64,000 nucleotides of DNA, taken from NCBI GenBank assembly GCA_965660445.1, contig CBFIAK010000001.1:42121-106120 (forward strand). Direction: 5' to 3'. Each line of letters starts with the position of its first letter. Position 1 is the stretch's first letter. The notes under the pieces are model-generated. The model saw only the letters and a program-made list of their open reading frames with translations, was not told the origin of the DNA and did no database searches. Position numbers and translations under genes: made by a program. This DNA is from Patescibacteria group bacterium. GTDB lineage: Bacteria; Patescibacteriota; Gracilibacteria; UBA4473. Below are positions 10,577 to 30,459 of this stretch, piece by piece.

Positions 10577-10594
10577 TTTATAACATTCTCTCTC

Positions 10595-11787: not shown

Positions 11788-11826
11788 TACTTGTCAAAAA
11801 ATATTTTGTGTCTATAGTGAAAACAC

Positions 11827-13424: not shown

Positions 13425-14086
13425 ATCACAGATTTTCAATTCTTCGTTCGGTATTAGAACTCATCACGCTGATTGCTTTTTTTTATTTAGTGGTTCATTT
13501 AAATGGGCATGCCATACTGCTCTTGCTTGATCATGGACACGCAGATCATCACCACATAACCGAGACCGTATCTATTGTGTCTCATTGGGAAGAATGGGCA
13601 TGGGGCATTGGAATAAGTCTTCTTTTTATTGGTATATGGCAAAAAACACCATTACGACACCTTATACCGTGTCAGCATGAACATTGTCACACAGAAAAAC
13701 CACTCTCCCATTTACTCGCCATTGGAGCTTTGTGTTTGCATTTTTTCCCGGAAGCAGGAATTCGATATTCATTACTCGAAACATTCTCGTTTCAATGGGA
13801 ATCAGTATTAGTACTCGTAGGGTTTATATCACACATACTGGTTGATATTCTCATTACATTTCATTTAGCGTCTTATTGGAACACACTTCCAAAACGCATA
13901 CTCTGTGTTCTCTTTATTGGAAGCATTTGGGGAGTCGCATTCTTTGCGCATAACTGGATAGACGTTATTTTTTCTCATACAACAGAGGGGTTGTTTCTTT
14001 TAATAAGCGGGTTTATACTGTCGATGTTTCTTCATCTTCCTCATAAACCAAAATCATGTGTGGTTTGTGAATCGCAACCATCATAA
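13421..14086 (+). CDS. His-rich polytopic membrane protein, function unknown
   Basis: 221 aa with several TM helices plus DHGHADHHH and CQHEHCH clusters. The start overlaps the upstream stop (ATGA). Confidence 0.5.
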   Translation: MNHRFSILRSVLELITLIAFFYLVVHLNGHAILLLLDHGHADHHHITETVSIVSHWEEWAWGIGISLLFIGIWQKTPLRHLIPCQHEHCHTEKPLSHLLAIGALCLHFFPEAGIRYSLLETFSFQWESVLVLVGFISHILVDILITFHLASYWNTLPKRILCVLFIGSIWGVAFFAHNWIDVIFSHTTEGLFLLISGFILSMFLHLPHKPKSCVVCESQPS

Positions 14087-15849
14087 TGGAACAAAAAACC
14101 GCTTTACGCATACTCAAAACCGGAGAAAACGTTTTTTTAACAGGTGCAGCAGGAACAGGAAAAACGTATGTATTGCATCAATTTATAAAATGGCTCTACA
14201 CACATCGCATATCAGTGGCTATTACGGCTTCCACTGGAATTGCCAGTTCTCATATTGCTGGGCAAACGATTCATAGTTGGAGTGGTATTGGTATTCGAGA
14301 AACACTCACTCGCAAAGACTGTGATACGATTGCTCGTAAAAAAGTGGTACGTGAACGAATTGAGTCGACTCATGTTTTGATCATTGATGAGATGTCGATG
14401 ATTTCTCGCCAAACACTTGAGGCTCTTGATGAACTGTTTCGGTTTATACGGTTATCAAACGCACCGTTTGGTGGTATGCAAGTGGTGGTATGTGGAGACT
14501 TTTTTCAGCTTCCACCAGTAAGCAAAACCCCTATACCCAACACACAAAAATTTGCGTTTATGTCTCCTTTATGGGGGCAAGCAAGGTTTCAGGTGTGTTA
14601 CTTAAAAGACCAGTTTCGACAAAACGAAGACGATCTCGCTGGGTTTTTGGACGAAATTCGGTCAGGAGAAGTATCAGATAGTCGTATCAATCAGCTCCAA
14701 GAGTGTATTGAACGCACGCAAGAAGAAACTCCGGAACAAACCTATACGAAACTCTATACACATAACATTGATGTGGATACATTAAACGAAAAAGAACTAA
14801 ACGCGCTGCCCTCTCCGGGATATGAGTTTGTAGGCATGGGATCAGGTGACAAATCGGGCATAGAAATACTAATGAAATCAGTATTAGTACCGCACCGTAT
14901 GGTATTAAAAAAAGGAGCTCCTGTTATGTTTATTAAAAATAATCCAAAAGTGGGATACCACAATGGAACACTTGGCACCATTACTGATTTTACATCAGAA
15001 GGGTTTCCCGTGGTCACGACACGAGACGATCGAGATATTTATGTAACACAGGAAGAATGGAGTATTCGTGATCGGTACGGAACACCTCAATCAACGTATA
15101 GCCATATTCCATTACGCCTCGCATGGGCTATTACCGTACATAAAAGCCAAGGGATGACACTTGATGAAGCAGAAATGGATTTATCAAAGACGTTTGAAAC
15201 AGGGCAAGGATATGTCGCGTTATCGAGAGTACGCAATTGGAGAGGATTAAGACTTCTCGGATGTAATAGCACAGCATTACAGATTGATCCACTTGTATTA
15301 CAAGCCGATAAACGGTTTCAAGAACTCTCACAAGACGGAGAACAAAACATACTCAATACCGATTCATCATTGATTGAAAAACGTATTGAAGACAGACGTT
15401 TATCACAAGAAAATTCTATGAAAGAAGAAGAAATGCCTTTGTTTCTCTCTGAAAAAAAGAAAGTAAAAATAAAGAAGAGTGTAGTCAAACCAGAACCTCA
15501 AAAAAAAGTATCAACCTATAGTGTGACCAAATCGTTATTACTCGAGAAAAAGCCAATTGAGTCTATTATGGAAGCACGAGGAATGAATTATGATACGATT
15601 ATCAAACACATTGAACATTTAGTCATAGAAACACCTGATTTAGATATCGATTATTTACGTCCTGAAAAAAAAGACATGGCAAAAATGACGATGGGGTTCA
15701 TACAAGCAGAACAGAAAGCAACCGCTGAAGACCGTGATAAAGACGGACATGTAAAACTCAAACTTGTTTTTGAGACTCTTAATGAGTCTTATTTCTATAA
15801 CGATTTAAAAATCGCACGACTTTTTTTATTAGACCGCACAAAAAACTAA
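14086..15849 (+). CDS. Pif1/RecD-like SF1B DNA helicase with C-terminal helix-turn-helix-like extension
   Basis: 587 aa with Walker A GAAGTGKT, Walker B LIIDEMSM, GDFFQLPPV, TVHKSQG and YVALSRV. The start overlaps the upstream stop (TAATG). Confidence 0.8.
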   Translation: MEQKTALRILKTGENVFLTGAAGTGKTYVLHQFIKWLYTHRISVAITASTGIASSHIAGQTIHSWSGIGIRETLTRKDCDTIARKKVVRERIESTHVLIIDEMSMISRQTLEALDELFRFIRLSNAPFGGMQVVVCGDFFQLPPVSKTPIPNTQKFAFMSPLWGQARFQVCYLKDQFRQNEDDLAGFLDEIRSGEVSDSRINQLQECIERTQEETPEQTYTKLYTHNIDVDTLNEKELNALPSPGYEFVGMGSGDKSGIEILMKSVLVPHRMVLKKGAPVMFIKNNPKVGYHNGTLGTITDFTSEGFPVVTTRDDRDIYVTQEEWSIRDRYGTPQSTYSHIPLRLAWAITVHKSQGMTLDEAEMDLSKTFETGQGYVALSRVRNWRGLRLLGCNSTALQIDPLVLQADKRFQELSQDGEQNILNTDSSLIEKRIEDRRLSQENSMKEEEMPLFLSEKKKVKIKKSVVKPEPQKKVSTYSVTKSLLLEKKPIESIMEARGMNYDTIIKHIEHLVIETPDLDIDYLRPEKKDMAKMTMGFIQAEQKATAEDRDKDGHVKLKLVFETLNESYFYNDLKIARLFLLDRTKN

Positions 15850-15850
15850 T

Positions 15851-16282
15851 ATGAAAGAGAACCAAATAGCCATTTCATGGGATGACGAACACGAAATGAA
15901 AACAGAATGGATTCAGTTAGAAAAAGCCATTACTGATAGAGGATCAAAATATAGTATTACGGCTGGCAGAGTAAGAACCAATACTGAAATAAAACAGTTT
16001 CTAAAGAAAGTGAAATCCAATAAAAAGTATGCAAAAGCGACACATAATACATATGCCGTTCGTGTTCGAAAAGACGGAAAAGTTTACGAAAGTAAGAACG
16101 ATGACGGCGAAACAGGAGCGGGGATGGTTATTTTAAGACAACTACGCAATCACAACTGGGTAAATATAGTGGTAGTGGTGACACGTTGGTTTGGAGGAAT
16201 ACAATTGCATGCCGATCGGTTTCGACATGTGCAAGATGGAACTGATATGATACTGAATGTTCTGGAAACAAAAAAAGAATAG
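15851..16282 (+). CDS. yigZ: YigZ/IMPACT (UPF0029) family protein, N-terminal domain only
   Basis: 143 aa with GSKYSI..AKATHNTYA..DDGE..AG, characteristic of the IMPACT N-terminal domain. Confidence 0.65.
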   Translation: MKENQIAISWDDEHEMKTEWIQLEKAITDRGSKYSITAGRVRTNTEIKQFLKKVKSNKKYAKATHNTYAVRVRKDGKVYESKNDDGETGAGMVILRQLRNHNWVNIVVVVTRWFGGIQLHADRFRHVQDGTDMILNVLETKKE

Positions 16283-16338
16283 ATTTTTCGCAAAAACGAG
16301 GTACAGTTTGAACAATTATTATTTCGTATTCCACAAAG

Positions 16339-17208
16339 ATGACCATTCCTCCAGAAGTGATGACACAGATTAAAAAAGCTCAACAAGGAGAAATGACTGA
16401 GTATTATATCTACACAGCGTTATCGCAGAGAGTTTCCCATACACACAACCGAGACATTTTAACCCGCATTGCTGAACAAGAAAAATCACACAGTGAGTTT
16501 TGGGCACAATACACAGGCACACAAGCCACACCAAACGCATGGAAAGTATGGTGGTTTACAACTATTGCTCGTTTATTTGGGCTTACGTTTGGATTAAGAC
16601 TTATGGAAAAAGGCGAAGTACATGCACAAAGCATGTACGCATCAATTATCGAGTATGTACCTGAAGGCAAATCTATACTTGAAGACGAAAAACAACACGA
16701 ACAAGAACTCATCGAATTACTCCATGAAAAAAAACTCGATTACATGGGTTCGGTTGTTTTAGGACTTAACGATGCGTTGGTAGAACTAACAGGCGCACTA
16801 GCAGGATTATCGTTTGCGTTTCAGAACACACATCTTATTGCTGTCACAGGGCTCATTACAGGTGTAGCAGCATCGTTTTCGATGGCAGCATCTGAATATT
16901 TATCAAATAAAGCAGATGGGAACAAAGATGCTCATATATCGGCTTTGTATACAGGGTTAGCCTATATTGGAACGGTTCTCTTTTTAGTCACTCCATTTTT
17001 CGTATTCACGCATTACGCAGTTGCTTTGGGAGTTTCGCTCAGTATATCAATTTTGATTATTTTCTTTTTCAATTTTTACCTCTCTATTGCACGAAACACA
17101 GAGTTTTGGAAACGTTTTTTTGAGATGGCGGGTATTAGTCTTGGTGTATCAGCTCTGAGTTTTGGTATTGGTATTTTTGTACGATTTTATTTTGGGATTG
17201 AGGTATAG
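16339..17208 (+). CDS. Ferritin-like domain fused to a VIT1/CCC1-family iron/manganese transporter
   Basis: 289 aa with an N-terminal rubrerythrin/ferritin-like ExxH segments (EQEKSHSEF, EDEKQHEQE) followed by VIT1-like TM helices (GLNDALVELTGALAG). Confidence 0.65.
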   Translation: MTIPPEVMTQIKKAQQGEMTEYYIYTALSQRVSHTHNRDILTRIAEQEKSHSEFWAQYTGTQATPNAWKVWWFTTIARLFGLTFGLRLMEKGEVHAQSMYASIIEYVPEGKSILEDEKQHEQELIELLHEKKLDYMGSVVLGLNDALVELTGALAGLSFAFQNTHLIAVTGLITGVAASFSMAASEYLSNKADGNKDAHISALYTGLAYIGTVLFLVTPFFVFTHYAVALGVSLSISILIIFFFNFYLSIARNTEFWKRFFEMAGISLGVSALSFGIGIFVRFYFGIEV

Positions 17209-17298
17209 CAAACACCAACCGTGTCCCGATATATCGAGAAACAGTATCCCTCCTTTTCATTGCCTCGTTTCACTCGTTATTCAAAGCACATTCAACTG

Positions 17299-17387
17299 TG
17301 GCGGGCAGAATATGTCTCCTACCCTTTATAGCTATTATTTAATATTTCAATGAGACAAACAAGACACTATAAAAAAGGGTGTCTCAA
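17299..17387. repeat. attL-like site: TGGCGG core plus P'-type arm
   Basis: TGGCGGGCAG..GTCTC.. then CAATGAGACAAACAAGACACTATAAAAAAGGGTGTCTCAA, which includes the hairpin GAGACAC-N11-GTGTCTC. It is nearly identical to 20425-20467. Confidence 0.55.
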
Positions 17388-17389
17388 AA

Positions 17390-20092
17390 TTAAAGATTAT
17401 TTTTTGCCTTAATTAGCGCGATATCTTTATTATTATTTCTTGTTTTCAAAGAATCTAGGATCTTTTGACCTGCCTCTGGAGTCCAATATATTTTTAGGTT
17501 TTCTCTAGCTCGTGTAATAGCTGTATAAAAAATATTATGAGTAATCAACTCTTCTGTTTCGGCCGTGATTACAATCTTAACCGAATTATATTCCAACCCT
17601 TGTGCTTTATGGATTGAAACTGCATAAGCTACCTGAAAAGGAATTATTGTGTCCAAAGAGTCATCATCTTCATCAGTACTTTTATACTTGTTAACAACAA
17701 AACGAATCACAGAGGTGTCATCAGATTCACTATCAAGAAGTTCAAGATCATACCTAGACGCTTCAAATCCATTGATAACTTTTCCAATTTCAATATCAAA
17801 TTGTATTTGATCTTCAGAGCTATTTATATCGATGATTCTACCTTTTAAGTTATTATAAATTAAAGGCGAAAATCGTTCTGCCTCGTTAAACAAAATAGGA
17901 TCATTGACCTTATAGGTTTGGATTCCCCATCTCACTGTTTTGTTTTTGTTATTATTTTGTAAAAACCTATTAATATTATTTATTCCATAAAGCCCATCAT
18001 AATTTAAACAAAGAATAATTTCATCGTTTTGTGTATAATCAAAAATTGACTCATCAAGCCTTGCTGAATATTGGTTTCTTGTTATATGCTCAACAATATC
18101 ATCATCAATATTTCGAACTTTATCCCAAAGATCAAGTAAGTTTTTATTTGTTGTTCGGTAAGGCTTCGTTAGTTCAAAAACTGAATGATCTCGTATAAAT
18201 GGTCTAATTACACTAAACCAATTTCCGAATAGAATTGATTCAATTTGGAATATGTCACCAACTAAAACTATAGATAAAAAAGAAACTTTCTCTAATATTT
18301 TTTGCATATCAGTATTACTAACAGTACTGCATTCATCAATAAAGAGTAGATCGAACTCACTATCTTGATTACTTCGAGACAAGAACTTGGATATAGTTTG
18401 AAATTTGCAATTAGAGGCTTGAACTTTTCTTCTCAAATTATCTACAGCAGGGTTTGTGTTTGCTAGATAAAGTTTTCGTTCATCATTAAAAAAATGTGAT
18501 ATGTGATTTATCAGAGTTGATTTGCCAGTTCCTGCCGCACCATAAATTAGAGCTACTTTGGAGCTTTCAAACATTTGTTCAATAAACGATTTTTTTTGAT
18601 CGCAATCAATATCGTAATCAGAAAAATTCAACCAAGCACTAACCGATTTCGAATAGTCTTTAAAGCCTGTTAATGAAAGATCCTTTAATTCATTAATAAT
18701 ATATAATACATCTTTTTCATACCCCCTCATATAAATATGATTCTTATAGCTATCAAGTTTTCGATTTCCGTGAGTAAAATAAAGTGAATTATTATAAGTT
18801 TGAATAAGATCATCAACATTCTCAAAATGATCTAACTCTTCTTGTGGAGTGTATAAATATCCATTAACTTCTGTGTTATTTTTCACAAATCTTGCGAGTA
18901 TTTCGTGCTCTCTACCAGTTGAATCAATGCAATCAAACAAATCTGAAATTTTAGGATTATGGTTTTTTAGAGACGTATTAAATGGCATTTCATCAAAAGG
19001 AATACAACCATATTCAAGTTTTAAATCTGATAACTTTATACAAGATGTTCCTGTATACTGCTTTTTTATAATCTGGTTATTTAACCGATAGAGCAAATAA
19101 GCAATAATATTATGACCTGCTTTTTTATTTTTAATTAAACCTCGACATTCGTCTAAAATACTCAAAAAATGTATAGTTTTAACTCTTGTTTTTAATGCAT
19201 CCTGAAAATCTTTATAATTATCATCAGGAAGATTCATAATTTCAGGAACACTAAGACCAGACCTCTTAAGAAGAGACATTAGTTCTCGTGATTCTGGAGA
19301 GTTTCCTCTCATTTTAAGTTCACTTCCAAATATTTTGGCAAAATTATTGAGCTCACATGGCCTAATTGAGATCTCCCAATCATCAATAATTTGAATCGGC
19401 ATCTGTTTATTCAAAACACTTATATAATCATTACTAATTGAAAGTTTAACGGCATAATTTTTGGAAACATCAAATCGTGTAAATGCAATAATTCTATCAA
19501 ATTTACTTATGTTATTACTTGCTCGAGTAAAAGTTACCTCATAATAAACTTCATATTGAACAAAAAAGGGTTTTATCTTTTGAATATAGTATCTGTCACC
19601 TGTGGATGATTTAGATCTTCTTGATGCTGGCTGTTTAATTTTGTCAACGATCTTTTCATAATACTCACTAAGTGCTGGATCTGTATTTATGGGGAAATCA
19701 CGAATATTACTAAGAACATCAAGTCCATACTGTCTTTTGAGAAAAGATCTTATTTTCAATAGGTATTCATAGTACTTCAAAATTAATCTTTCAGAGTTTT
19801 CTTCATCAAGGGTGTAATGAGAAGCTGAGATTTTTAACAAGCTATGAAATTTTTTTAAGAACTTCAACTTTCCCATTCGGCCTACAAAAGCATTAGCTTC
19901 CTCAATATTTTCGTAATTAATTTTTATATCATCCCCATTACTGAAAATCTTCAATGAGATATGTTCAACAAAATTCCTAAGCTGGGAAAGCATATTTTGA
20001 GAGAGAATACCCCTTTCTGTAACGTCAAATTTATCAATATTAGCACAAAGAAGTTTATCGATATCTAAGATGGCTTTATCTATTTTTTGCAT
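17390..20092 (-). CDS. 900-aa SF1B (RecD/Pif1/Dda-like) helicase with about 510-aa uncharacterised N-terminal region carrying a HEPN-like Rx4H motif
   Basis: C-terminal half has Walker A GAAGTGKST, Walker B LLFIDECS, VGDIFQ, SIHKAQGLEY and YTAITRAREN. The N-terminus has LRNFVEH (R39-H44). The gene looks more AT-rich than its neighbours by eye. Confidence 0.8.
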   Translation of the reverse strand: MQKIDKAILDIDKLLCANIDKFDVTERGILSQNMLSQLRNFVEHISLKIFSNGDDIKINYENIEEANAFVGRMGKLKFLKKFHSLLKISASHYTLDEENSERLILKYYEYLLKIRSFLKRQYGLDVLSNIRDFPINTDPALSEYYEKIVDKIKQPASRRSKSSTGDRYYIQKIKPFFVQYEVYYEVTFTRASNNISKFDRIIAFTRFDVSKNYAVKLSISNDYISVLNKQMPIQIIDDWEISIRPCELNNFAKIFGSELKMRGNSPESRELMSLLKRSGLSVPEIMNLPDDNYKDFQDALKTRVKTIHFLSILDECRGLIKNKKAGHNIIAYLLYRLNNQIIKKQYTGTSCIKLSDLKLEYGCIPFDEMPFNTSLKNHNPKISDLFDCIDSTGREHEILARFVKNNTEVNGYLYTPQEELDHFENVDDLIQTYNNSLYFTHGNRKLDSYKNHIYMRGYEKDVLYIINELKDLSLTGFKDYSKSVSAWLNFSDYDIDCDQKKSFIEQMFESSKVALIYGAAGTGKSTLINHISHFFNDERKLYLANTNPAVDNLRRKVQASNCKFQTISKFLSRSNQDSEFDLLFIDECSTVSNTDMQKILEKVSFLSIVLVGDIFQIESILFGNWFSVIRPFIRDHSVFELTKPYRTTNKNLLDLWDKVRNIDDDIVEHITRNQYSARLDESIFDYTQNDEIILCLNYDGLYGINNINRFLQNNNKNKTVRWGIQTYKVNDPILFNEAERFSPLIYNNLKGRIIDINSSEDQIQFDIEIGKVINGFEASRYDLELLDSESDDTSVIRFVVNKYKSTDEDDDSLDTIIPFQVAYAVSIHKAQGLEYNSVKIVITAETEELITHNIFYTAITRARENLKIYWTPEAGQKILDSLKTRNNNKDIALIKAKNNL

Positions 20093-20210
20093 TCAAAAAT
20101 AATTGAAGAAAATAATACTCTTATACTACTTTTTTGAAAAATATTGAATAGGATTCTTTATCCAAAAAAGGCAAAAGGGTCAATAAACTGTAACATTATA
20201 GTCTTTAATT

Positions 20211-20467
20211 CCACTGCCCTTACTGATCTCTCCACCATAGTGACCAACCTTCCAACCCTTTCGACGACTCTAAGGGTTTAAACAGGTCTTAACAAGCAAA
20301 AATCATAATGTACCACTCCCTAGGAAGTAGATCACTATGACGTATTAGTGAATTGTATGGCGGGCAGGAACGGTCTCATGTCTTATCTGTCATTATCATT
20401 AGCCTTTTTTGTATATCTTTTTATCAAAATGAGACAAATGAGACACTATAAAAAAGGGGTGTCTCAA
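20211..20467. repeat. attP-like junction between the two elements (P-type arm + TGGCGG core + P'-type arm)
   Basis: 20211-20357 aligns co-linearly with 24134-24282 through the blocks ACTGCCCTTA, CGACGACT.T.AAGG.TTTA and ATTAGTG..TTGT.TGGCGG. 20364-20467 aligns with 17305-17387. Confidence 0.55.
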
Positions 20468-20578
20468 TTTTCATAATGTTACAAATGTTACACCGTAGAA
20501 GGGGCATTAAATAAGGAAAAAAATCCTAGACTTCAAAATCCATTGCGTCATCAATTGAATACAAATTTTATTCAACAA

Positions 20579-21817
20579 ATGAATAAGTTAGTACCAGAAG
20601 TGAAATACTGCATCTATGCGAGGAAGTCGAGTGAATCGGATGAGAAACAAGCCCTATCGATTGGATCACAGATAACCGAAATGCAACGGCTGGCAGAAAA
20701 AGAAGGACTCAAGGTCGTTGAGAGCATCCAAGAGAGCAAATCTGCCAAAGACTCGGGGCAAAGAGCAGGATTTACACAGCTTCTCGCAGGGCTTGAGGAA
20801 GAGCGGTTCAATGCCATTCTCACATGGGCACCAGATCGGCTGAGTAGAAATGCGGGAGACCTTGGGAAACTGGTAGATCTAATGGATCAGAAGGTGCTTG
20901 TGAAGATTCAGACAAGCGGACAGGCATTCACAAACACTCCTGATGAAAAATTCCTGCTCATGATCCTGTGTTCTCAAGCCAAGTTAGAAAACGATAACAG
21001 GTCAAAGAATGTGAAACGAGGACAACGAACACGGTGCGAAATGGGAACTAGTCCTGGACCCGTGCCACTTGGATATAAACTCATCCGAGGACAAAAATAC
21101 GGAGAAGCGAGTAAGATTTTAATCGATACGGAACAAGCCCCATTCGTTAAAAAAGCATTCGAATATATCGCTTATGAGAACTTAAGTGGACGACAGGTAA
21201 AAGAATATCTGGAAGATGAAGGATTCCGTAATAAACAAGGGAAAGTCATTGGATATAGTCGAATTTTCAAAATCATTAAAGAACCGTTTTACTACGGTGA
21301 GTTTGATTATGGAGGAATCCGATACAAAGGAACTCATAAACCGATAATCACAAAAGAACTCTTTGATGCTGTTCAAGACAAACTGCAAAAATATGCGGTT
21401 CGAGAAAAATGGGGACGAAAAGATTTTTACTTCAATCGGATTCTGAAATGTGCTGAGTGTGGATCAGGTGTCAGTGGAACAGAACACACAAACAGACATG
21501 GAACCAAATACATCTACTACAAATGCAACAAATATGGCGGAACAAAAAAATGTAGTTGCAAATACATTCGAGAAGAAAAACTTTTTGAAGAAGTGGCAAA
21601 AATCATTGTCGACGTAAAAGAAGAACATCTTCGAATGAATCGACGAATCAAAGAAGACTTAATAATGATAAATCGGCATCACAGAGAAAAACCAATAACA
21701 ATCCAAGAGCATTTAATCTCCATACTCAAGGATGGAACGAAAAAAGAGAAATCTGATATTTTGAGGAGTTTTAAAGAGAAATTATTATTGAAAGATGGGA
21801 AAATAGTATTGTTTTAA
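20579..21817 (+). CDS. Large serine recombinase (resolvase/invertase catalytic domain + recombinase domain + zinc ribbon)
   Basis: N-terminal YARKSS catalytic-serine context, a central recombinase domain, and a Cys cluster CAECGSG..YYKCNKYGGTKKCSC. The track start at 20543 is TTG; ATG 20579 is preferred. Confidence 0.85.
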   Translation: MNKLVPEVKYCIYARKSSESDEKQALSIGSQITEMQRLAEKEGLKVVESIQESKSAKDSGQRAGFTQLLAGLEEERFNAILTWAPDRLSRNAGDLGKLVDLMDQKVLVKIQTSGQAFTNTPDEKFLLMILCSQAKLENDNRSKNVKRGQRTRCEMGTSPGPVPLGYKLIRGQKYGEASKILIDTEQAPFVKKAFEYIAYENLSGRQVKEYLEDEGFRNKQGKVIGYSRIFKIIKEPFYYGEFDYGGIRYKGTHKPIITKELFDAVQDKLQKYAVREKWGRKDFYFNRILKCAECGSGVSGTEHTNRHGTKYIYYKCNKYGGTKKCSCKYIREEKLFEEVAKIIVDVKEEHLRMNRRIKEDLIMINRHHREKPITIQEHLISILKDGTKKEKSDILRSFKEKLLLKDGKIVLF

Positions 21818-21900
21818 CGTCAGGAATATACGAAGTTTTGCGACTGAAAGGAGTAAAATTTGGGTGAAGCCTGCAAGGATTTTCTCTTTAAGCCTTGTTA
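21815..21900. repeat. Cassette-associated repeat R2 (attC-like, degenerate)
   Basis: Shares the blocks TAAC.TCAGGA, AAGTT, TTTGGG, CCTGCAAGGA, TTTCT and CCTTGTTA with R1 at 22531-22606. It lies immediately 3' of the 2H phosphoesterase gene in the minus direction. Confidence 0.5.
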
Positions 21901-21971
21901 TGTGGTTTTTCTGCAAGAAAAACTGCTGGAGAAAATCTTTGATTTTCGTAAGCACAGTATGACGGAGGACA

Positions 21972-22469
21972 CTATCTACTAGAATAAAAATCCTGTATTT
22001 CTTTCCAACTTCCATCAATCTTTTTTGCTAAAGAGTATCTTGAGATTCTATCTTTTCGACTAATTAATTCTTTTGAAGTTCTATCAAATTGTGAAGATGA
22101 TTTTGAAATTGTTAAATGTGGATTATAATTATCTTCAAAATATTGTTTTGCGATTACATCAAATTCTGAATCAGCATAATTTCTTACAACAGAAACAATT
22201 CCTTTATGCAATTGCAAAAGCTCATCAGAACGAGATAATTTTAACACTAAAGAATCTTTATCAAAATCATCGAAACCTAAAGTTTCAAATTCAAAAGGAT
22301 TAAAACTAATTTGAGAAAAATCAGTAACCAATTTATTTTCATGTTTAGGTTTCATATAGAAAAAACAAAGTGTAGAATGTAAACCAGAACTTGGTAGAAC
22401 TAAATTATTTTGTCTCGAAATTAAATTGGACAATTCTTCGTTTGGTCGAAAATAAGCAAGATACTTCAT
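21972..22469 (-). CDS. 2H phosphoesterase superfamily protein (LigT/cyclic phosphodiesterase-like)
   Basis: 165 aa with two HxT/S motifs in the expected hydrophobic context (GLHSTLCFF and NPHLTISK). Confidence 0.7.
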   Translation of the reverse strand: MKYLAYFRPNEELSNLISRQNNLVLPSSGLHSTLCFFYMKPKHENKLVTDFSQISFNPFEFETLGFDDFDKDSLVLKLSRSDELLQLHKGIVSVVRNYADSEFDVIAKQYFEDNYNPHLTISKSSSQFDRTSKELISRKDRISRYSLAKKIDGSWKEIQDFYSSR

Positions 22470-22530
22470 AAATTAAGGAAAGAAATACAGTAATATAAAT
22501 ATTTGGATAGTGTTCGAGTAATATTGCACA

Positions 22531-22606
22531 TAACATCAGGATTTAACAAAGTTCGCGGAGCGAATTTGGGAAATTCCTGCAAGGAATTTCTGTTAAATCC
22601 TTGTTA
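22531..22606. repeat. Cassette-associated repeat R1 (attC-like)
   Basis: Perfect 10-bp inverted repeat GGATTTAACA (22539-22548) / TGTTAAATCC (22591-22600), enclosing hairpins TTCGC-GGA-GCGAA and GAAATTCCT-GCA-AGGAATTTC. It lies 3' of the isochorismatase-family gene in the minus direction. Confidence 0.55.
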
Positions 22607-22670
22607 AATGAGGGTGAGCGAAGCGAAAGGCTGCAAGCCGTCCCCGACTGACTGCAAGGAAGGAGAGTTT

Positions 22671-23189
22671 CTACAAACAAACGTCATCAGTCAAGAGAAT
22701 TTGCTTTTTACCAAGAATATGTTTTAAACTATCAATTGCCGAATCATGATTATTTTTCCCATGTAAAGAATTACAAGCATCTTCAATTACAAAAGTTTCA
22801 ATATTATTATCAAATAAATCCATCGCAGTTTTGATAATACAAACATCCGTGTAAATCCCAGTAAGATAAATTTTTGTAATTTTATTAGTTTTAATGAATT
22901 CTTTTAATTCATTATTTAATACAGTATAAGTATTATGCTGAATGTTTATATTGTCTGATGTTTGTAATTCGGAAAATAGTTTTTGATCTTCTTTATTTTG
23001 AAATTTAGTCCAACTTAATTGTTTTTCAAATAAAGATTTTCCATCATTAACAAATGTTGGAAAAACTATTTTTCCATTAAATGATTCTTTCAATTTTAAA
23101 AGATTCGGCAATATATTCTCAGATTCTTGGTATCTAAAACCTTCTTGCATATCAATTATTAAAAGCAAATTCTCCATAATATAAAACAT
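22671..23189 (-). CDS. Isochorismatase/nicotinamidase-family cysteine hydrolase
   Basis: 172 aa with LLIIDMQEGF (catalytic Asp context) and LTGIYTDVCII (catalytic Cys context). An alternative ATG lies at 23177. Confidence 0.7.
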   Translation of the reverse strand: MFYIMENLLLIIDMQEGFRYQESENILPNLLKLKESFNGKIVFPTFVNDGKSLFEKQLSWTKFQNKEDQKLFSELQTSDNINIQHNTYTVLNNELKEFIKTNKITKIYLTGIYTDVCIIKTAMDLFDNNIETFVIEDACNSLHGKNNHDSAIDSLKHILGKKQILLTDDVCL

Positions 23190-23311
23190 AAATTACTTTG
23201 TATATAAAAGTTTGTTTGTAGAAATTTCATTTAACTCGTTTTTATCCAACCTTTGTATTTCAAATATAGCAATTTCTTGTATGTTATGCAAACTTTTATT
23301 ATTCTTTGGAT

Positions 23312-24124
23312 ATGGAAAATATTTTGGACAAAACCGAACGAGTTTGGAAATTGAGAAACTACTCCCCAAAAACTCGCAAAGCATATCTGTTCTACATAAG
23401 AGAGTATATCAGTTTTTCTAAAGGAAAAGGAATTAAAGATAAACAAAAAGCGATTGAAGATTTTTTGCTTGATAAATACAATCGTAAACAATCTCCGCAA
23501 ACAGTTAATCTGGCACTCAATGCGGTAAAATTTCTGTACGCGGAAGTTTTGAAAGATCCACAAAAGATTGACTTGAAGTTTGCGAAGAGAGACAAGAAAT
23601 TACCCATTGTTTTGTCTCATGCAGAAATTAAAGAAATTATCCAGGCGACTGAAAATGCAAAATACAAACTCATGATTTCGCTTGGCTATGCTTGCGGTCT
23701 GCGTGTGAGTGAAGTTATAAATCTACGTGTTGCAGATTTGGATATTGATGAACTCGTCGTACATATCAAAGGAGCAAAGGGGAAAAAAGACAGAATCAGT
23801 GTTTTGCCAGAAAAATTACAAAATGATTTGCGAAATATCATTGCAGGCAAAAGTAATAATGATTTTATCTTTGCCTCTAATCGAGGAGGAAAACTCACAA
23901 CAACGTCTTTACAAAAAATGTTCCGCAAAAGTTTAGCCAATACGAACATAAGAAAACCCGCTACCTTTCACTCATTGCGTCATTCATTCGCCACGCATTT
24001 ACTCGAAAATGGAACCGATGTGAGATATGTGCAAGAACTGCTTGGGCATTCCAACATCCGCACCACACAAGTGTATACGCAAGTAACAAATCCAAAGTTA
24101 AAGAACATAAAAAGCCCTTTATAA
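23312..24124 (+). CDS. Tyrosine recombinase, XerC/D-IntI-like
   Basis: 270 aa with an N-terminal SAM-like YSPKTRKAYLFYIREYISF, then GLRVSE, HSLRHSFATHLL and LLGHSNIRTTQVYT. It lacks the roughly 35-aa insertion typical of integron integrases. The track start at 23306 is TTG. Confidence 0.85.
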   Translation: MENILDKTERVWKLRNYSPKTRKAYLFYIREYISFSKGKGIKDKQKAIEDFLLDKYNRKQSPQTVNLALNAVKFLYAEVLKDPQKIDLKFAKRDKKLPIVLSHAEIKEIIQATENAKYKLMISLGYACGLRVSEVINLRVADLDIDELVVHIKGAKGKKDRISVLPEKLQNDLRNIIAGKSNNDFIFASNRGGKLTTTSLQKMFRKSLANTNIRKPATFHSLRHSFATHLLENGTDVRYVQELLGHSNIRTTQVYTQVTNPKLKNIKSPL

Positions 24125-24133
24125 ATATTTTTA

Positions 24134-24288
24134 AAACTGCCCTTATCGCACATACCTCATAGGAAGCAAAAACTCCTACCCATGCGACGACTTTGAAGGC
24201 TTTATCAACGCTAAATACCCCAAATGTCCCAATGCCCCATCCACCATAGTGGAAAGGAACCAGGTGCCATTAGTGCGTTGTCTGGCGG
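24134..24288. repeat. attR-like site: P-type arm plus TGGCGG core (= CCGCCA 3' end of tRNA-Ser)
   Basis: Co-linear similarity to 20211-20363. The core is the last 6 nt of the tRNA gene. Confidence 0.55.
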
Positions 24289-24373
24289 AGAGAGAGGGAT
24301 TCGAACCCTCGGTTCCGGAAAACGGAACACACGCTTTCCAAGCGTGCGCATTCGACCACTCTGCCATCTCTCC
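24283..24373 (-). tRNA. tRNA-Ser (anticodon GGA), class II with long variable arm, CCA encoded
   Basis: Reverse complement GGAGAGA-TG-GCA..TGC-G-CACGC-TTGGAAA-GCGTG-T-GTTCCG-TTTTC-CGGAAC-C-GAGGG-TTCGAAT-CCCTC-TCTCTCC-G-CCA folds as a cloverleaf, 91 nt. Confidence 0.92.
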
Positions 24374-24467
24374 TTTTCATCGCATTGGCGGTATCCTATC
24401 ACAAACGTTCCTTCATTCAAGCAAAAAAAGTTGAAAAAAATCCGAAAAACTCCCACAATCAAAACAC

Positions 24468-25496
24468 ATGAATCGATTATTCTGGCTATCAAGTCTCTTT
24501 TTATGCACCGTCGCATGGGCATCTCCCATGCCTTATAAGGCGTCATTACAGTCATATACCAATCAAAGAATCCCTCAAAATGCAGTTGGGGCGCATATAG
24601 CCACGCTTCATATACAGGCTCATGAAGACATTGCTGTTTCTGAAATCCATGTATGGGCGAAAGGACTCGTCACCAGTGACGATTTTGAAAATGCATGGAT
24701 CGAAACGAGTACTCAAGTTTCAAGCTTTCAATCGCCTTTTTTTAATGATAACACCAGTCATATACGGTTTCGAGACCCTATTTATATCTCAAAAAACGAA
24801 GAAATAAGTTTTGATATATTTTTAAGTCTGCGCCAGAACATTGCGAATCGAAATTTTTCACTTGATGTCCAAAACATAGTACTTGAAAACAAAAACCACA
24901 AAACAACGCCTATCACTTTACTCGAAACACAGCAAACAACTATTTCTGGATTCGAAGCACCTGAAATAAAAATCATACCGCTTGGTTCAGATACCGTAAT
25001 TCCCATGGGACGCACACGAGAACTTGCACGGTTTCAAATACAAAACACAAACGCAACACCTATAAATCTTAAAAACATTCAACTCGAAAACATTGGTACG
25101 GCGAACTTGCATGAGAGTTTTTCTTCTCTCAGTCTTATACATCAAAACACCGTACTCGCAAACGCATCACCACAACAAAATGAAACGATTACTTGGGAAA
25201 TTCCTTCGTTTGTTATCGAAAGAAACCAATCGGCAACATTCCAAGTCAGCGGACAACTTCTCTACGCACAAGACGGAAAAACTCTCCAGTTTCAAATCAA
25301 AAACGCTACTGATATAAAAACAAAACACAATGATCAGTCTTCATATGCTCGTATTATCTCATCATTACCCGTTTCACTCTCTACTCATACACTTCGCGGA
25401 GGCGGACTATTTACACGCCCATATAGACACAAATATTCTGGATTGCGTCGATCAGGAATCGAAATAAAAAACCCGTGGTATTTTCGCAATCACTAA
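24468..25496 (+). CDS. Secreted hypothetical protein
   Basis: 342 aa with signal peptide MNRLFWLSSLFLCTVAWASP. No family recognised. Confidence 0.5.
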   Translation: MNRLFWLSSLFLCTVAWASPMPYKASLQSYTNQRIPQNAVGAHIATLHIQAHEDIAVSEIHVWAKGLVTSDDFENAWIETSTQVSSFQSPFFNDNTSHIRFRDPIYISKNEEISFDIFLSLRQNIANRNFSLDVQNIVLENKNHKTTPITLLETQQTTISGFEAPEIKIIPLGSDTVIPMGRTRELARFQIQNTNATPINLKNIQLENIGTANLHESFSSLSLIHQNTVLANASPQQNETITWEIPSFVIERNQSATFQVSGQLLYAQDGKTLQFQIKNATDIKTKHNDQSSYARIISSLPVSLSTHTLRGGGLFTRPYRHKYSGLRRSGIEIKNPWYFRNH

Positions 25497-25698
25497 AGAA
25501 CAGAAAAACCCGCAAAACAAAGCAAAAAAATTTGACTTATTCTGTATCACAATTATTATCGCCCCCGATTATAGTTTGTATACAAATCTTGTGTTTTTCT
25601 TTCCATGCAAAAAAAACTTCTCCAATAAAGCATTACTGATCTTGTTTGGTAAAGCTCTATAAGAGTGTTTATTTTTATTTTTTCACCCTTCTTGTTCT

Positions 25699-28600
25699 AT
25701 GGTTGCCGTACAAAAATTCAATTTTCCAGCAAAACTTTCTCCTGTAAAAAAAGAAGGAGAACGATATTTTTTCACGTCTGATATCGGAGATGGGTTTGAG
25801 TTCCCAGATCTTATTCAAGTACAAACCAATTCTTATGACTGGTTTTTAGGAGAAGGACTTCAAGAACTCATTGATTCTATAAATCCTATTGAAGACGCAA
25901 CAGGAAAAAAACTAAAACTAGAAATAAAAAGTTACGACATTGAACCTCCTAAATACGATTTAGATACGTGTCATAAAAAAGGATTGTCATATGAATCAAT
26001 CATTCGAGCACAAGTAGCGCTCACCAATCTTGAAACTGGAGAAATCAAGGAACAAGAAGTTTATTTTGGACAAATTCCACAAATAACAGATCAAGGAACA
26101 TTTATTATTAATGGGATTGAACGGATTATTGTTTCTCAAATTGTACGAAGCCCTGGAGCGTTTTTTGCAGAAATGCAAAACATGCCAAATGCATTTACAG
26201 CAAAACTGATTCCAAAACGAGGAGCATGGATTGAAATTGAAACTGACAAAAGAGGTCTTATTTGGGTGAAAGTCGACCGAAAACGAAAAATACCAGTGAC
26301 CATGTTTTTGCGAACATTCGGGTATGATACGGATAAAAAAATTCTAGACTTGTTTAAAAATGAAACAAAAGGACTCACTGAAAACCCAATTTTAAAAACA
26401 CTTGAGAAAGACGAAGCAACAACTGAAAAAGAAGCATGGCAAGGAGTTTATAAACGAATTCGTCCAGGAGATTTAGCAACACCTGAAAACGCTAAAGTGT
26501 TTTTAGATGATATGTTTTTAAATTTTCGAAAATACGATTTAGGACCTATTGCGCGATACAAAATCAATAAAAAGTTTGATTTAAAAACGCCAAACACTCC
26601 AGAAGGCCGCACTTTTCAATTAGAAGACTTTATTGAAATGGTACGTGAAATTATACGACTCAATAACGGATCAGGACAAGGTCCTGACGATATTGATCAT
26701 TTAGCGAATCGACGTATCCGAGGGGTAGGAGAACTCGTACAAAACAAGTTTCGAATCGGATTGCTTCGAACAGAACGTATTATTCGAGACCGAATGTCTA
26801 TTGTCGATCTCGAAACCGTGACTCCAACTCAAATTGTAAACTGCAGACCAATCACAGCTGCAATGCATGAGTTCTTTGCATCTGCACAACTTTCGCAATT
26901 CATGGATCAAACAAATCCTTTAGCCGAACTTGAACACAAACGACGAATTTCAGCTATGGGTCCAGGGGGGCTTTCACGAGAACGAGCATCATTTGAAGTA
27001 CGTGACGTACACCCATCTCAATACGGGCGTATTTGTCCGGTCACAACACCAGAAGGTCCGAATATCGGACTCGTATTACACTTAGCATCGTATGCAAAAG
27101 TGAATGAATATGGGTTTTTAGAAACTCCATATCGAACAGTCTCTCATGTAATTGCAAATGATGGAACTGCTGTCATAGGACGAAGAGTAAAAGAAGAAAT
27201 CCTTGATGGAAAAAAAGTTATTATCTCAAAAGACCAAATCTGCACAAAAGAACAAGCAGAAGCCATCAAGAAAATAAAAGACAAAAAAGAAATTAAAGTA
27301 CAGGCTTATATCACAGATGAAGTACAATATTATGACCCAGATGCTGAACGAAAAATGTGTATTGCACAAGCGAACACCATTTTAAACGACAGAGGAGAAT
27401 TTACGAAAAGTTTTATTTCTGCTCGTAAAAACTATGAACCTGGAACCTATGATGAATCGATGGTGACACATATTGATATTTCTCCAAAACAGATTGTGTC
27501 TCTTTCTACATCACTTATTTCATTCCTTGAACACGACGACAATACTCGTGCATTGATGGGATCAAACATGCAACGACAAGCAGTTCCTCTTATTATGCCA
27601 GATTCCCCTATTGTTGGAACAGGAATGGAAAAGATCACATCACGAGACCAATGTATTCGAGCTGAAGAAGATGGAGAAATTAAGTATGCTGATGCGAATG
27701 AAATCGTATTTGTCAGCAAATCAGGAAAAAAGAAAACATATTCACTCAAAACATTTTATCGATCAAACCAATCGACTTGTATCACACAGAAAACAAAAGT
27801 AGTGAGTAAACAAAAAGTAAAAAAAGGTGATGTCTTAGCTGATGGAGCTTCTGTAGAAAACGGAGAGCTTGCCATTGGGCAAAACTTGATCGTTGCGTAC
27901 ATGTCATGGAGTGGGTACAACTACGAAGATGCGATTATTATTTCTGAACGGTTAGTAAAAGAAGGGTCATACAATTCTATTCATATTGAAAAATATGAAC
28001 TCGATGTTCGTGACACAAAACTTGGGCCCGAAGAACTCACTGCAGACATTCCAAACGTAGCAGCCGCAAAACTCAAAGACTTAGACGAAAATGGATTGGT
28101 TCGTATTGGATCAACGGTTCTGGCAGGAGATATTCTTGCCGGAAAAGTGACTCCGAAAGGAGAAAGTGAATTAACCGCTGAAGATCGATTATTAAGAGCT
28201 ATTTTTGGAGAAAAAGCAAACGATGTAAAAGATTCTTCTCTTCGGCTTCCACGAGGATCTGGAGGGAAAGTGATTGACGTAAATATACTTGATCGATCAC
28301 AAGGTGACGATTTACCAAATGGAGTATTGAAACGAATTCAGATTTTAGTAGCACAGCTACGACATTTAGAAGCAGGAGACAAAATGGCAGGACGACACGG
28401 GAACAAAGGAGTTATTTCTCGAGTTGTACCAATTGAAGATATGCCACATATGGAAGACGGAACGCCAGTTGATATTATTCTTAATCCTCTTGGGGTATCG
28501 TCTCGTATGAACATTGGACAAATTCTCGAAACACATTTAGGAATGGCAGCCTATAAGATGGGTATAAAAGTAGCAACTCCAGTACTGAATGGAATCTCGT

Positions 28601-29346: not shown

Positions 29347-29362
29347 AGAAAAAAAATCAAAA

Positions 29363-29390
29363 GGCAGAAACTTATTATTTCTGCCTTTTT
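29363..29390 (+). terminator. Intrinsic terminator after rpoB
   Basis: GGCAGAAA-CTTATTA-TTTCTGCC followed by TTTTT, 17 nt after the rpoB stop. Confidence 0.8.
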
Positions 29391-29392
29391 AA

Positions 29393-29467
29393 GCACGTAT
29401 CGTATAATGGCTATTATACGGCCTTGCCAAGGCTGAGACACGGGTTCGACTCCCGTTACGTGCTCCA
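29393..29467 (+). tRNA. tRNA-Gly (anticodon GCC), CCA encoded
   Basis: Acceptor GCACGTA/TACGTGC, anticodon arm CGGCC-TTGCCAA-GGCTG, T arm ACGGG-TTCGACT-CCCGT, discriminator T, CCA. 75 nt. Confidence 0.88.
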
Positions 29468-30413: not shown

Positions 30414-30459
30414 GGATATATTCAAAACCAAAAATAAAAACTTAATATAATTTCCAATT

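What the first reader, a model, noticed from the sequence alone, without database searches (positions are those of the whole stretch)
17209..24373. Two tandem integrative elements at the 3' end of tRNA-Ser(GGA), with an attL / attP-like / attR repeat pattern
The hexamer TGGCGG, which is the complement of the tRNA-Ser ...CCGCCA 3' end, occurs at 17299, 20358 and 24283. Sequence to the right of the core is shared by sites 1 and 2. Both read GCAG..GTCTC.., then the nearly identical CAA(AA)TGAGACAAA-NN-AGACACTATAAAAAAGGG(G)TGTCTCAA (17348-17387 and 20425-20467). Sequence to the left of the core is shared by sites 2 and 3. The segments 20211-20357 and 24134-24282 have the same length of about 146 nt, with co-linear blocks ACTGCCCTTA, CGACGACT.T.AAGG.TTTA and ATTAGTG..TTGT.TGGCGG. 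Left of site 1 is unrelated VIT1 flank, and right of site 3 is the tRNA body. This B-core-P', P-core-P', P-core-B' arrangement is what tandem insertion of two related elements into one attB would leave. Element 1 (about 3.05 kb, 17305-20357) encodes no recombinase, so it may be a non-autonomous satellite mobilised by element 2. Element 2 is about 3.9 kb (20364-24282).
Basis: partly seen in the sequence, partly recalled or inferred. Interest (0 to 1): 0.78.

Follow-up and report, generated by a model that had tools for sequence, protein, structure and literature searches.

The report
Tandem mobile islands beside tRNA-Ser
Two related mobile DNA islands sit head-to-tail at the end of a serine tRNA gene in a candidate-phyla-radiation (CPR) type bacterium; one carries only an anti-phage helicase, and the other carries a serine recombinase plus a small integron-like gene-capture unit whose integrase lacks the domain that defines integron integrases.

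Summary
TGGCGG occurs at 17299, 20358 and 24283. The hexamer alone is not significant. The arms are. R1 and R2 share a 40-nt block at 92-94% identity (global z=9.2). L2 and L3 match at 105 of 167 aligned columns (z=8.2), and 0 of 1475 random window segments score as high.

An unrelated genome (L140) settles what the arms are. One ~18-kb element there has the same R arm at one end (42/42 nt identical). At the other end it has the same L arm (79.5% over 146 nt), abutting tRNA-Tyr. It encodes two large serine recombinases and no tyrosine recombinase. So L and R are the P and P' arms of a family of elements that insert at tRNA 3' ends.

- **Element 1 (17305-20357):** arms plus one full-length PDC-S53 defence-candidate helicase, no recombinase.
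- **Element 2 (20364-24282):** a serine recombinase plus an integron-like unit. That unit has an IntI-like integrase lacking the IntI-specific domain, an attI site and two cassettes with attC-like sites.

This integrase family is 82-94% identical across many CPR lineages. In 43 loci its attC-like arrays lie only upstream and antisense. Mobility in this genome was not shown, because no close relative exists in the databases searched.

The parts
16339..17208 (+). VIT1-family gene, the host gene on the left of the insertion
   Evidence: Pfam VIT1 E=1.4e-11. GC matches the flanks.
17209..17298 (.). Host flank (B arm) left of site 1
   Evidence: No similarity to L2 or L3 (z=-0.6 and -0.9). The Logan contig carrying the host flank ends at 17279.
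17299..17387 (+). Site 1 (attL-like): core TGGCGG(GCAG), then the R1 arm ending in the motif AATGAGACAAACAAGACAC-TATAAAAAAGGG-TGTCTCAA
   Evidence: R1 is 93.5% identical over 46 nt to the R arm of L140.
17390..20092 (-). Only gene of element 1: a 900-aa SF1 helicase, full-length member of the PADLOC defence candidate PDC-S53
   Evidence: PADLOC PDC-S53 1336 bits, residues 1-899 against model positions 1-895 of 900. Pfam AAA_30, Viral_helicase1 and UvrD_C_2.
20205..20357 (+). L2 arm (P arm of element 1), non-coding
   Evidence: 105/167 identities to L3, z=8.2. Fold energy is not different from shuffles.
20358..20476 (+). Site 2 core TGGCGG(GCAG) and the R2 arm (P' arm of element 2). Together with L2 this forms the attP-like junction.
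   Evidence: The R2 motif is 42/42 identical to L140. Logan contigs break at 20439-20455, inside the motif.
20579..21817 (+). Large serine recombinase, 412 aa (alternative TTG start at 20543)
   Evidence: Pfam Resolvase, Recombinase and Zn_ribbon_recom. Best NCBIfam hit CcrB at 119 bits, far below that model's cut-off. It is 91-95% identical to recombinases in phage-like islands L140 and L141. Its last ~7 residues diverge at the attC2 junction.
21812..21904 (-). attC2, the distal attC-like site. Its R' box GTTAAAA overlaps the serine recombinase stop codon.
   Evidence: nhmmer hit 21904-21815, 32 bits, with a model built only from L051 sites. Its R'' box CACATAAC is the reverse complement of the attC1 R' box GTTATGTG. 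It does not fold well.
21818..22533 (-). Cassette 2: a 165-aa 2',5' RNA ligase / 2H phosphoesterase-like ORF (21972-22469) plus attC2
   Evidence: Pfam 2_5_RNA_ligase2 E=2.7e-9. Boundaries read from the G|TT rule.
22528..22610 (-). attC1, an attC-like imperfect palindrome
   Evidence: Single-strand DNA fold -20.8 kcal/mol, z=-7.6. Its R'' box CATTTAAC is the reverse complement of GTTAAATG at attI.
22534..23234 (-). Cassette 1: a 172-aa isochorismatase-family ORF (22671-23189) plus attC1
   Evidence: Pfam Isochorismatase E=1.5e-28. GC 23-31%.
23190..23311 (.). attI region and integrase promoter region. The crossover lies between 23234 and 23235 (minus strand ...AAAACGAG|TTAAATG).
   Evidence: About 75 nt upstream of the integrase gene are conserved across loci. 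Conservation stops abruptly at ...AAC|T(G/C)GTTTTTAT. Several contigs start exactly there.
23312..24124 (+). IntI-like tyrosine recombinase, 270 aa, lacking the IntI-specific additional domain
   Evidence: Best NCBIfam hit is TIGR02249 integron integrase, 226 bits against a cut-off of 265, matched in two stretches. Best PDB hit is VchIntIA 2A3V, E=4e-46, with residues ~211-241 of that chain unmatched.
24134..24282 (+). L3 arm (P arm of element 2), between the integrase stop and the tRNA 3' end
   Evidence: 63% identical to L2. It is 79.5% identical over 146 nt to the arm abutting tRNA-Tyr in L140, E=6e-33.
24283..24373 (-). tRNA-Ser(GGA), intact. Its last six bases CCGCCA form the site 3 core (24283-24288).
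   Evidence: ARAGORN and Rfam. Logan contigs overlap at 24284-24312.

Best explanation
The 7.0-kb block 17299-24288 is a composite island. I infer it was built by successive site-specific insertion of two related integrative elements at the 3' end of tRNA-Ser(GGA).

Both elements belong to a CPR family whose circular attachment site is L arm, then a short core equal to the last 6-8 nt of a tRNA, then R arm. The family travels with large serine recombinases.

Element 2 (tRNA-proximal, 20364-24282) looks like a much-reduced member. It keeps the R arm, one serine recombinase and the L arm. In the cargo position next to the L arm it carries an integron-like unit. That unit is an IntI-like tyrosine recombinase, an attI site, and two promoterless cassettes on the opposite strand, each ending in an attC-like hairpin.

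Element 1 (distal, 17305-20357) keeps only the two arms and one defence-candidate helicase. It could therefore move only if a recombinase is supplied in trans.

Shown here: the arm homologies, the same arms bounding one element at another tRNA in another genome, the gene content, and the integron-type cassette boundaries.

Inferred: the serine recombinase (rather than the tyrosine one) acts on the L/R sites, the two elements arrived separately, and either can still move.
For: - **Arms:** R1/R2 and L2/L3 homologies are far above chance, while the outer flanks are unrelated.
- **L140:** one element with host-TGGTGGG-R at the left and L-TGGTGGG-tRNA-Tyr at the right. R is 42/42 identical to R2 and L is 79.5% identical over 146 nt to L3. 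It encodes two serine recombinases, 46% and 91% identical to the window's, and no tyrosine recombinase hit.
- **Helicase relatives (62-64% identity):** they lie directly after tRNA-Ser(TGA) twice, after a tRNA-Ser 3' end, after tRNA-Gln and after tRNA-Asp. In four of these loci a convergent serine recombinase follows. The arm starts with a conserved motif right after CCA, (G/T)ACAATTnAnTA, which L2 and L3 also have.
- **R motif next to the same genes elsewhere:** it sits ~75-110 nt upstream of a serine recombinase gene in both the window and L140, and directly after the helicase stop in both the window and L115.
- **Foreign composition:**
- **Assembly breaks:** Logan contigs identical to the window are 47-59 kb long in the flanks. 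They break three times within the 7 kb, each break within 100 nt of one of the three sites.
- **Integron-like part:**
  - attC1 folds with z=-7.6.
  - The R'' box of each cassette is the reverse complement of the R' box that precedes it, 8/8 nt twice.
  - A model built from six L051 sites finds 83 sites in 43 sources, all upstream of the integrase gene and antisense to it.
  - The boundary rule holds across arrays: 15/34 perfect matches to the preceding site against 3/72 to a site's own R' box.
Against: - No empty site, single-occupancy site or circular junction could be retrieved. The 342-aa neighbour protein has no homologue among 5.8 billion proteins, and the tRNA 60-mer is absent from JGI metagenomes.
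- Two of the three Logan breaks are not at the TGGCGG cores. One is 20 nt to the left of site 1. The other is 81 nt to the right of site 2, inside the R hairpin.
- Serine integrases normally destroy attB on integration, so tandem insertion is less expected than with tyrosine integrases.
- The recombinase next to the R arm in L140 is only 46% identical to the window's. Which serine recombinase subgroup reads the arms is therefore open.
- L2 and L3 are only 63% identical, so the two elements are old or arrived from different sources.
- The serine recombinase has an altered C-terminus at the attC2 junction.
Confidence: 0.72

Rival explanations
1. The architecture is the same, but the IntI-like tyrosine recombinase next to the tRNA is the enzyme that inserts the elements at the tRNA 3' end. 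It might do this in addition to handling cassettes. The serine recombinase would then be cargo or a relic.
For: - In 33 of 80 GTDB loci a homologue of this integrase lies 6-430 nt from the 3' end of a convergent tRNA: Ser, Leu, Ala, Val, Lys, Ile or Trp.
- L064 and L080 share the integrase 3' end (90%) and the arm (88%) up to the CCA of different tRNA-Ser isoacceptors. Identity then drops to 66% in the tRNA and 50% in the host flank.
- In L051 and L074 the whole integron is bracketed by direct repeats that include the tRNA 3' end, with no homologue of the window's serine recombinase found by tblastn in those loci.
- Tandem insertion is typical of tyrosine integrases.
Against: - L140 has both arms and no tyrosine recombinase.
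- The L and R arms were not found next to the other 80 integrase loci, apart from an R motif in L071.
- The protein is a 270-aa Xer/IntI-type enzyme with no arm-binding domain.
- Most tRNA-adjacent loci show no flanking direct repeat.
Confidence: 0.2
2. There was one insertion, not two. A single ancestral element, or a tandem dimer formed during its integration, was later remodelled by deletions and by replacement of one helicase copy with the integron. Site 2 would then be an internal relic, and element 1 was never an independent or mobilisable unit.
For: - In related islands the helicase and a serine recombinase are neighbours in one element.
- In L121 they are divergent, as in the window.
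- The integron sits exactly where the helicase lies in L109-type islands, between the arm and the recombinase 3' end.
- Neither element is complete.
Against: - L2 and L3 are only 63% identical while the R motifs are 92-94% identical. This uneven divergence fits two different source elements better than a recent duplication.
- Logan contigs separate element 1 from element 2 as distinct assembly units.
Confidence: 0.15
3. The repeats are not recombination sites. They would be shared regulatory or terminator motifs of neighbouring genes, and the block would be ordinary diverged chromosome.
For: - The R motif looks like an operator or terminator. It has three GAGACA half-sites and a hairpin.
- It lies next to gene ends or starts.
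Against: - In L140 the same two arms lie at the two ends of an 18-kb island of phage-like and defence genes abutting a different tRNA.
- GC composition, gene content and the assembly breaks all mark the block as foreign.
Confidence: 0.03

Closest known systems
SCC elements of staphylococci (SCCmec, composite and pseudo-SCC islands); comparison from established knowledge, not tested here
   Same: - Large serine recombinases of the Ccr type. CcrB is the best NCBIfam hit of the window's recombinase.
- Insertion at the 3' end of one conserved gene.
- Short direct repeats at each junction.
- Tandem accretion of several elements.
- Members without recombinase genes that depend on others.
- Cargo of defence or resistance genes.
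   Different: - The target here is a tRNA 3' end (Ser, and Tyr in L140), not rlmH.
- Only one recombinase is present, not a CcrA/CcrB pair, and the CcrB score is far below the family cut-off.
- The arms are long (~110-150 nt) and conserved.
- The host is a CPR bacterium.
Tandem accretion of integrative elements at tRNA or other att sites, such as ICESt1/ICESt3 with CIMEs in Streptococcus thermophilus; from established knowledge
   Same: - A non-autonomous element that keeps only att sites and cargo lies next to an autonomous relative.
- The same attL / internal att / attR pattern is present.
   Different: - Those systems use tyrosine integrases with identical cores.
- Here the arms co-occur with serine recombinases, and the shared core is only 6-8 nt.
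Integrons (class 1 and chromosomal integrons; the IntI structure is VchIntIA, PDB 2A3V)
   Same: - The integrase is divergent from an array of promoterless cassettes.
- attI is adjacent to the integrase gene.
- attC-like imperfect palindromes carry RYYYAAC and GTTRRRY-type boxes.
- The crossover is at G|TT, so each cassette carries the last six bases of the preceding site.
- IntI is the closest solved structure and the best-scoring family.
   Different: - The recombinase lacks the ~30-residue IntI-specific domain (I2 helix) that defines IntI and is considered necessary for attC recombination (the definition is quoted in 10.1101/2022.02.06.479319).
- It scores below the TIGR02249 cut-off.
- It is 82-94% identical across many CPR lineages.
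- It is often placed next to a tRNA 3' end.
Prophages with large serine integrases (phiC31, Bxb1, A118); from established knowledge
   Same: - The same three-domain recombinase architecture.
- The recombinase gene lies close to the attachment site.
- Relatives lie next to terminase and methylase genes.
   Different: - Known serine integrases rarely target tRNA genes, share only a 2-bp crossover, and do not leave tandem arrays.
- No capsid genes were seen in the related islands.

Membership tests
tRNA-associated integrative element / genomic island in tandem | Inserted next to the 3' end of an intact tRNA gene | tested here: met
   tRNA-Ser(GGA) at 24283-24373 is intact, and foreign DNA starts at its CCA end.
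tRNA-associated integrative element / genomic island in tandem | Junctions share a core. Element-specific arms recur in the pattern B-P', P-P', P-B'. | tested here: met
   Arm statistics. The same arms bound one element at tRNA-Tyr in L140.
tRNA-associated integrative element / genomic island in tandem | The element encodes its own site-specific recombinase | tested here: met
   Met for element 2, which has a serine and a tyrosine recombinase. Not met for element 1, which has only a helicase.
tRNA-associated integrative element / genomic island in tandem | Empty site, single occupancy or excised circle exists in related genomes or reads | tested here: inconclusive
   No relatives were retrievable. 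The Logan assembly breaks near all three sites, but the positions are not exact.
Integron | IntI tyrosine recombinase with the IntI-specific additional domain (I2 helix) | tested here: not met
   TIGR02249 scores 226 bits against a cut-off of 265, matched in two stretches. The alignment to 2A3V skips residues ~211-241 of that chain. All close homologues are 270 aa.
Integron | attI next to the integrase gene, with the cassette array on the opposite strand | tested here: met
   The conserved upstream block ends at AAC|T. All 83 attC-like hits are upstream and antisense.
Integron | attC sites are imperfect palindromes with R''/R' boxes that fold as single strands | tested here: met
   attC1 folds with z=-7.6, but attC2 does not fold. 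The 77 related sites have a median z of -3.3.
Integron | Cassette boundary at G|TT: the R'' box of cassette n complements the R' box that precedes it | tested here: met
   Window: 8/8 nt twice. Across arrays: 15/34 perfect against 3/72 for a site's own R' box; L045 obeys the rule along a chain of five sites.
Integron | Demonstrated cassette excision and insertion by the integrase | not testable with these tools
   Needs a recombination assay or junction reads.
Large serine recombinase integrative element | Resolvase, Recombinase and zinc-ribbon domains | tested here: met
   Pfam hits. PHROG integrase family 95.
Large serine recombinase integrative element | Recombinase gene adjacent to the attachment site | tested here: met
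   R2 ends 112 nt upstream of the gene. L140 has the same layout.
Large serine recombinase integrative element | att sites of ~40-50 bp with a 2-bp crossover and attP x attB directionality | not testable with these tools
   The crossover point cannot be placed without an empty site.
PDC-S53 (PADLOC phage-defence candidate) | Full-length match to the family model | tested here: met
   1336 bits, residues 1-899 against model positions 1-895 of 900. The defence function itself is untested.

The most novel reading that the evidence does not exclude
CPR bacteria carry a widespread, horizontally spreading integron system whose integrase lacks the I2 domain held to be essential for attC recombination. 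The platform is also habitually placed at tRNA 3' ends. This would be either a pre-I2 stage or a reduced form of integrons. It could also be an enzyme that handles both cassette capture and tRNA-site insertion. It would be invisible to tools that require the IntI-specific domain.
Probability: 0.4. Interest if true: 0.82.

Novelty: new variant of a known kind. Interest (0 to 1): 0.62.

Why it matters
Tandem islands at a tRNA gene are ordinary in themselves. Three things here are less ordinary.

- **Attachment site defined by sequence alone.** The attachment site (L arm, tRNA-end core, R arm) of a family of CPR mobile elements can now be written down, and it travels with large serine recombinases. 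Those enzymes are not usually associated with tRNA targets or with tandem accretion. It gives a testable attP/attB pair for organisms that have no genetics.
- **A minimal non-autonomous element.** Element 1 shows that a single defence-candidate gene can persist with only the two arms.
- **An integron-like unit without the defining domain.** The cassette-boundary signature of integrons is clear across 43 loci. Yet the integrase lacks the domain that the field treats as the defining innovation for single-strand attC recombination. If the enzyme is active, that bears on how integrons evolved from Xer-like recombinases. It would also mean that standard integron finders miss a large reservoir of cassettes in CPR bacteria.

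Tried and rejected
- **Empty site via DNA:** a 60-nt tRNA-Ser pattern found nothing in JGI metagenomes.
- **Empty site via the neighbour protein:** the 342-aa protein has no homologue at all.
- **Exact-protein look-ups:** each returned only one Logan contig, all from the same sample and identical to the window.
- **Arms as a known RNA:** Rfam found only the tRNA. L2 and L3 do not fold better than shuffles and share no ORF.
- **L and R arms as part of the tyrosine integrase unit:** BLAST of the arms against 80 integrase loci gave nothing except an R motif in L071.
- **R2 as part of the serine recombinase gene unit:** rejected for the closest phage-like relative, L107, where homology starts only ~60 nt upstream of the gene.
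- **A third cassette containing the serine recombinase:** no matching R'' box GTTAAAAC exists.
- **Direct repeats of the tRNA end upstream of the integrase as a general rule:** significant only in L051, L066 and L074 among 17 testable loci. Two apparent repeats were simply other tRNA genes.
- **Literature:** searches for integrons in CPR/Patescibacteria found no description in the held library. That is absence in the library, not proof of novelty.

Full report
**1. The observation**

The window (37% GC) carries tRNA-Ser(GGA) at 24283-24373 on the minus strand. TGGCGG, the complement of its CCGCCA end, is at 17299, 20358 and 24283. It occurs nine times on the plus strand of the window, so the hexamer alone means nothing. 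TGGCGGGCAG is confined to sites 1 and 2.

The arms are real.
- To the right of the core, sites 1 and 2 share a 40-nt block at 92-94% identity. The global alignment scores z=9.2.
- To the left of the core, 20205-20363 and 24130-24288 align with 105 identities in 167 columns. The z-score is 8.2-8.6, and none of 1475 random window segments scores as high.
- The left flank of site 1 and the tRNA body to the right of site 3 resemble nothing else.
- GC drops to 28-30% in 17.5-20.2 kb and to 22-32% in 21.8-23.5 kb.

**2. Gene content**

Pfam, NCBIfam, PADLOC and PHROGs give the following order, left to right:
- host VIT1 gene;
- a 900-aa SF1 helicase (minus strand) that is a full-length member of the PADLOC defence candidate PDC-S53 (1336 bits);
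- a 412-aa large serine recombinase;
- two small minus-strand ORFs, one 2H/2',5' RNA ligase-like and one of the isochorismatase family;
- a 270-aa tyrosine recombinase;
- the tRNA.

**3. What the arms are**

The closest relatives of the serine recombinase (91-95% identity) lie in phage-like defence islands. One of them, L140, is a 446-kb contig from another sample. It holds a single ~18-kb element.
- Its left end reads host flank, then CTGGTGGG, then an R arm whose 42-nt motif is identical to R2.
- Its right end is an L arm 79.5% identical over 146 nt to L3 (E=6e-33). This arm runs straight into TGGTGGG, the 3' end of tRNA-Tyr(GTA).
- The element encodes two serine recombinases, a LexA-like repressor, methylases, terminase-like proteins and restriction/defence genes. 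It has no tyrosine recombinase hit.

L and R are therefore the two arms of the attachment site of a mobile family that inserts at tRNA 3' ends with a 6-8 nt core. The window's TGGCGGGCAG resembles the tRNA-Tyr end TGGTGGGCAGAG. That hints at an earlier residence of these elements at a tRNA-Tyr.

**4. Element 1**

Helicase homologues at 62-64% identity were fetched from IMG/VR and metagenomes.
- They lie immediately after tRNA-Ser(TGA) twice, after a tRNA-Ser 3' end at a contig start, after tRNA-Gln and after tRNA-Asp.
- In four of these loci a convergent serine recombinase follows the helicase.
- Right after the CCA they share the arm start (G/T)ACAATTnAnTA, which L2 and L3 also have.
- In L115 the R motif follows the helicase stop, as R1 does in the window.

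Element 1 therefore looks like a member of this family reduced to arms plus one cargo gene.

**5. Element 2 contains an integron-like unit**

The evidence in the window:
- Two 44-nt repeats (family D1) lie downstream of the two small ORFs.
- On the minus strand, attC1 (22528-22610) is an imperfect palindrome that folds with z=-7.6.
- Its first box, CATTTAAC, is the reverse complement of GTTAAATG in the integrase-proximal region.
- The first box of attC2, CACATAAC, is the reverse complement of GTTATGTG at the end of attC1. This is the cassette-boundary signature of integrons, with the crossover at G|TT.

The evidence from the 80 GTDB loci that hold integrase homologues:
- The ~75 nt upstream of the gene are conserved up to ...AAC|T(G/C)GTTTTTAT, and conservation stops there.
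- Several contigs begin at exactly that base.
- L051 shows six cassettes.
- A profile built only from those six sites finds 83 sites in 43 sources, every one upstream of the integrase gene and antisense to it. One of them is attC2 of the window.
- Across arrays, the variable four bases of a site's first box match the preceding site's last box perfectly in 15 of 34 cases. They match the site's own last box in only 3 of 72. The sites fold with a median z of -3.3.

The recombinase itself:
- It scores best against integron integrase (TIGR02249, 226 bits, cut-off 265) and against VchIntIA (2A3V, E=4e-46).
- It lacks the ~30 residues of the IntI-specific domain. The literature treats that domain as defining and necessary (10.1101/2022.02.06.479319).
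- The family is large (>7600 hits). Its top members are 82-94% identical across Kaiserbacteria, Moraniibacteriota, Saccharibacteria-labelled, Peregrinibacteria and other MAGs. That level of identity implies horizontal spread.

**6. Which enzyme inserts at the tRNA**

The case for the serine recombinase:
- L140 has the arms and no tyrosine enzyme.
- The helicase islands carry serine recombinases.
- The window and L140 share the same recombinase subgroup at 91% identity.

The case for the tyrosine recombinase:
- 33 of 80 homologues lie 6-430 nt from a convergent tRNA 3' end.
- L064 and L080 share the integrase end and the arm (88-90%) up to the CCA of different tRNA-Ser genes.
- In L051 and L074 the whole integron is bracketed by repeats that include the tRNA end.

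I favour the serine recombinase for the L/R arms of this window, and I keep the tyrosine enzyme as a live rival. The integron occupies the cargo position next to the L arm. That position holds defence genes in L140, L141 and L107, and it holds the helicase in L109-type islands. The last ~7 codons of the serine recombinase diverge at the attC2 junction, which suggests a recombination joint there.

**7. Evidence for current mobility is indirect**

Logan contigs from ERR15116713 are identical to the window. They cover 6339-17279, 17275-20455, 20439-24312 and 24284-35496. The flanking contigs are 47-59 kb long, yet the 7-kb block is cut three times, each cut within 100 nt of a site. Exact repeats between the arms are at most 18 nt, which is too short to break a k=31 assembly graph. 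Structural heterogeneity in the sample is therefore likely. Two of the cuts are not at the cores, and I cannot explain their positions without reads.

No empty site could be sought. The neighbouring 342-aa protein has no homologue, and the tRNA pattern is absent from JGI metagenomes.

**8. Verdict**

The block is a new member of a known kind (tandem accretion at a tRNA, closest in logic to composite SCC islands). Its embedded integron-like platform is a new variant of a known kind and is the most interesting part.

Noticed in passing
L051:2262-2481 and L051:8843-9062: In this MAG the whole integron (integrase plus six cassettes) is flanked by ~220-nt inverted repeats at ~90% identity. It also has a 27-33 nt direct repeat made of a terminator palindrome plus the CCACCA end of tRNA-Ala.
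   Followed up: partly
window 17275-17279, 20439-20455, 24284-24312: Short-read contigs of the same population break at these three places, with overlaps of 5, 17 and 29 nt. Only the last coincides with a proposed core. The middle one lies at the centre of the R2 hairpin.
   Followed up: partly
L103 (IMG/VR contig, 26 kb): The contig is a head-to-tail repeat of a 9117-nt unit with terminase-like, methylase, ribonucleotide reductase and NUDIX genes. Each unit carries a tRNA-3'-like segment, TGGCGGAGCACCTAGGTCTGGAACCC, 70 nt from an R motif. This looks like an attP on a circular or concatemeric element.
   Followed up: partly
L071:9040-9190: An integrase homologue (60% identity) is followed by a terminator hairpin, a tRNA-3'-like fragment and the R motif, with no tRNA gene. 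This matches the layout of site 2 in the window.
   Followed up: partly
L111:1028-1256: Downstream of an 89%-identical integrase lies a same-strand tRNA-Ser(GGA). About 115 nt further on is a second tRNA-Ser 3' fragment, GGGAGAATCCCACCCTCTCCGCCA, followed by a terminator. It may be a displaced tRNA end.
   Followed up: no
window 21805-21818: The serine recombinase is 5 residues shorter than its 91-95% relatives. Its last ~7 residues diverge exactly where the attC2 R' box overlaps its stop codon.
   Followed up: partly
window 14086-15849: A PIF1-family helicase with a C-terminal HTH_40 domain lies two genes upstream of the insertion site, in host-like DNA. It is unrelated to the PDC-S53 helicase.
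   Followed up: no
L109:4287-7274 and L140:11313-20201: Relatives of these islands carry type I or type ISP restriction-modification genes, a Thoeris ThsB TIR protein, and SNF2 and PD-(D/E)XK genes next to the serine recombinase. The family therefore acts as a defence-gene carrier in CPR bacteria.
   Followed up: partly
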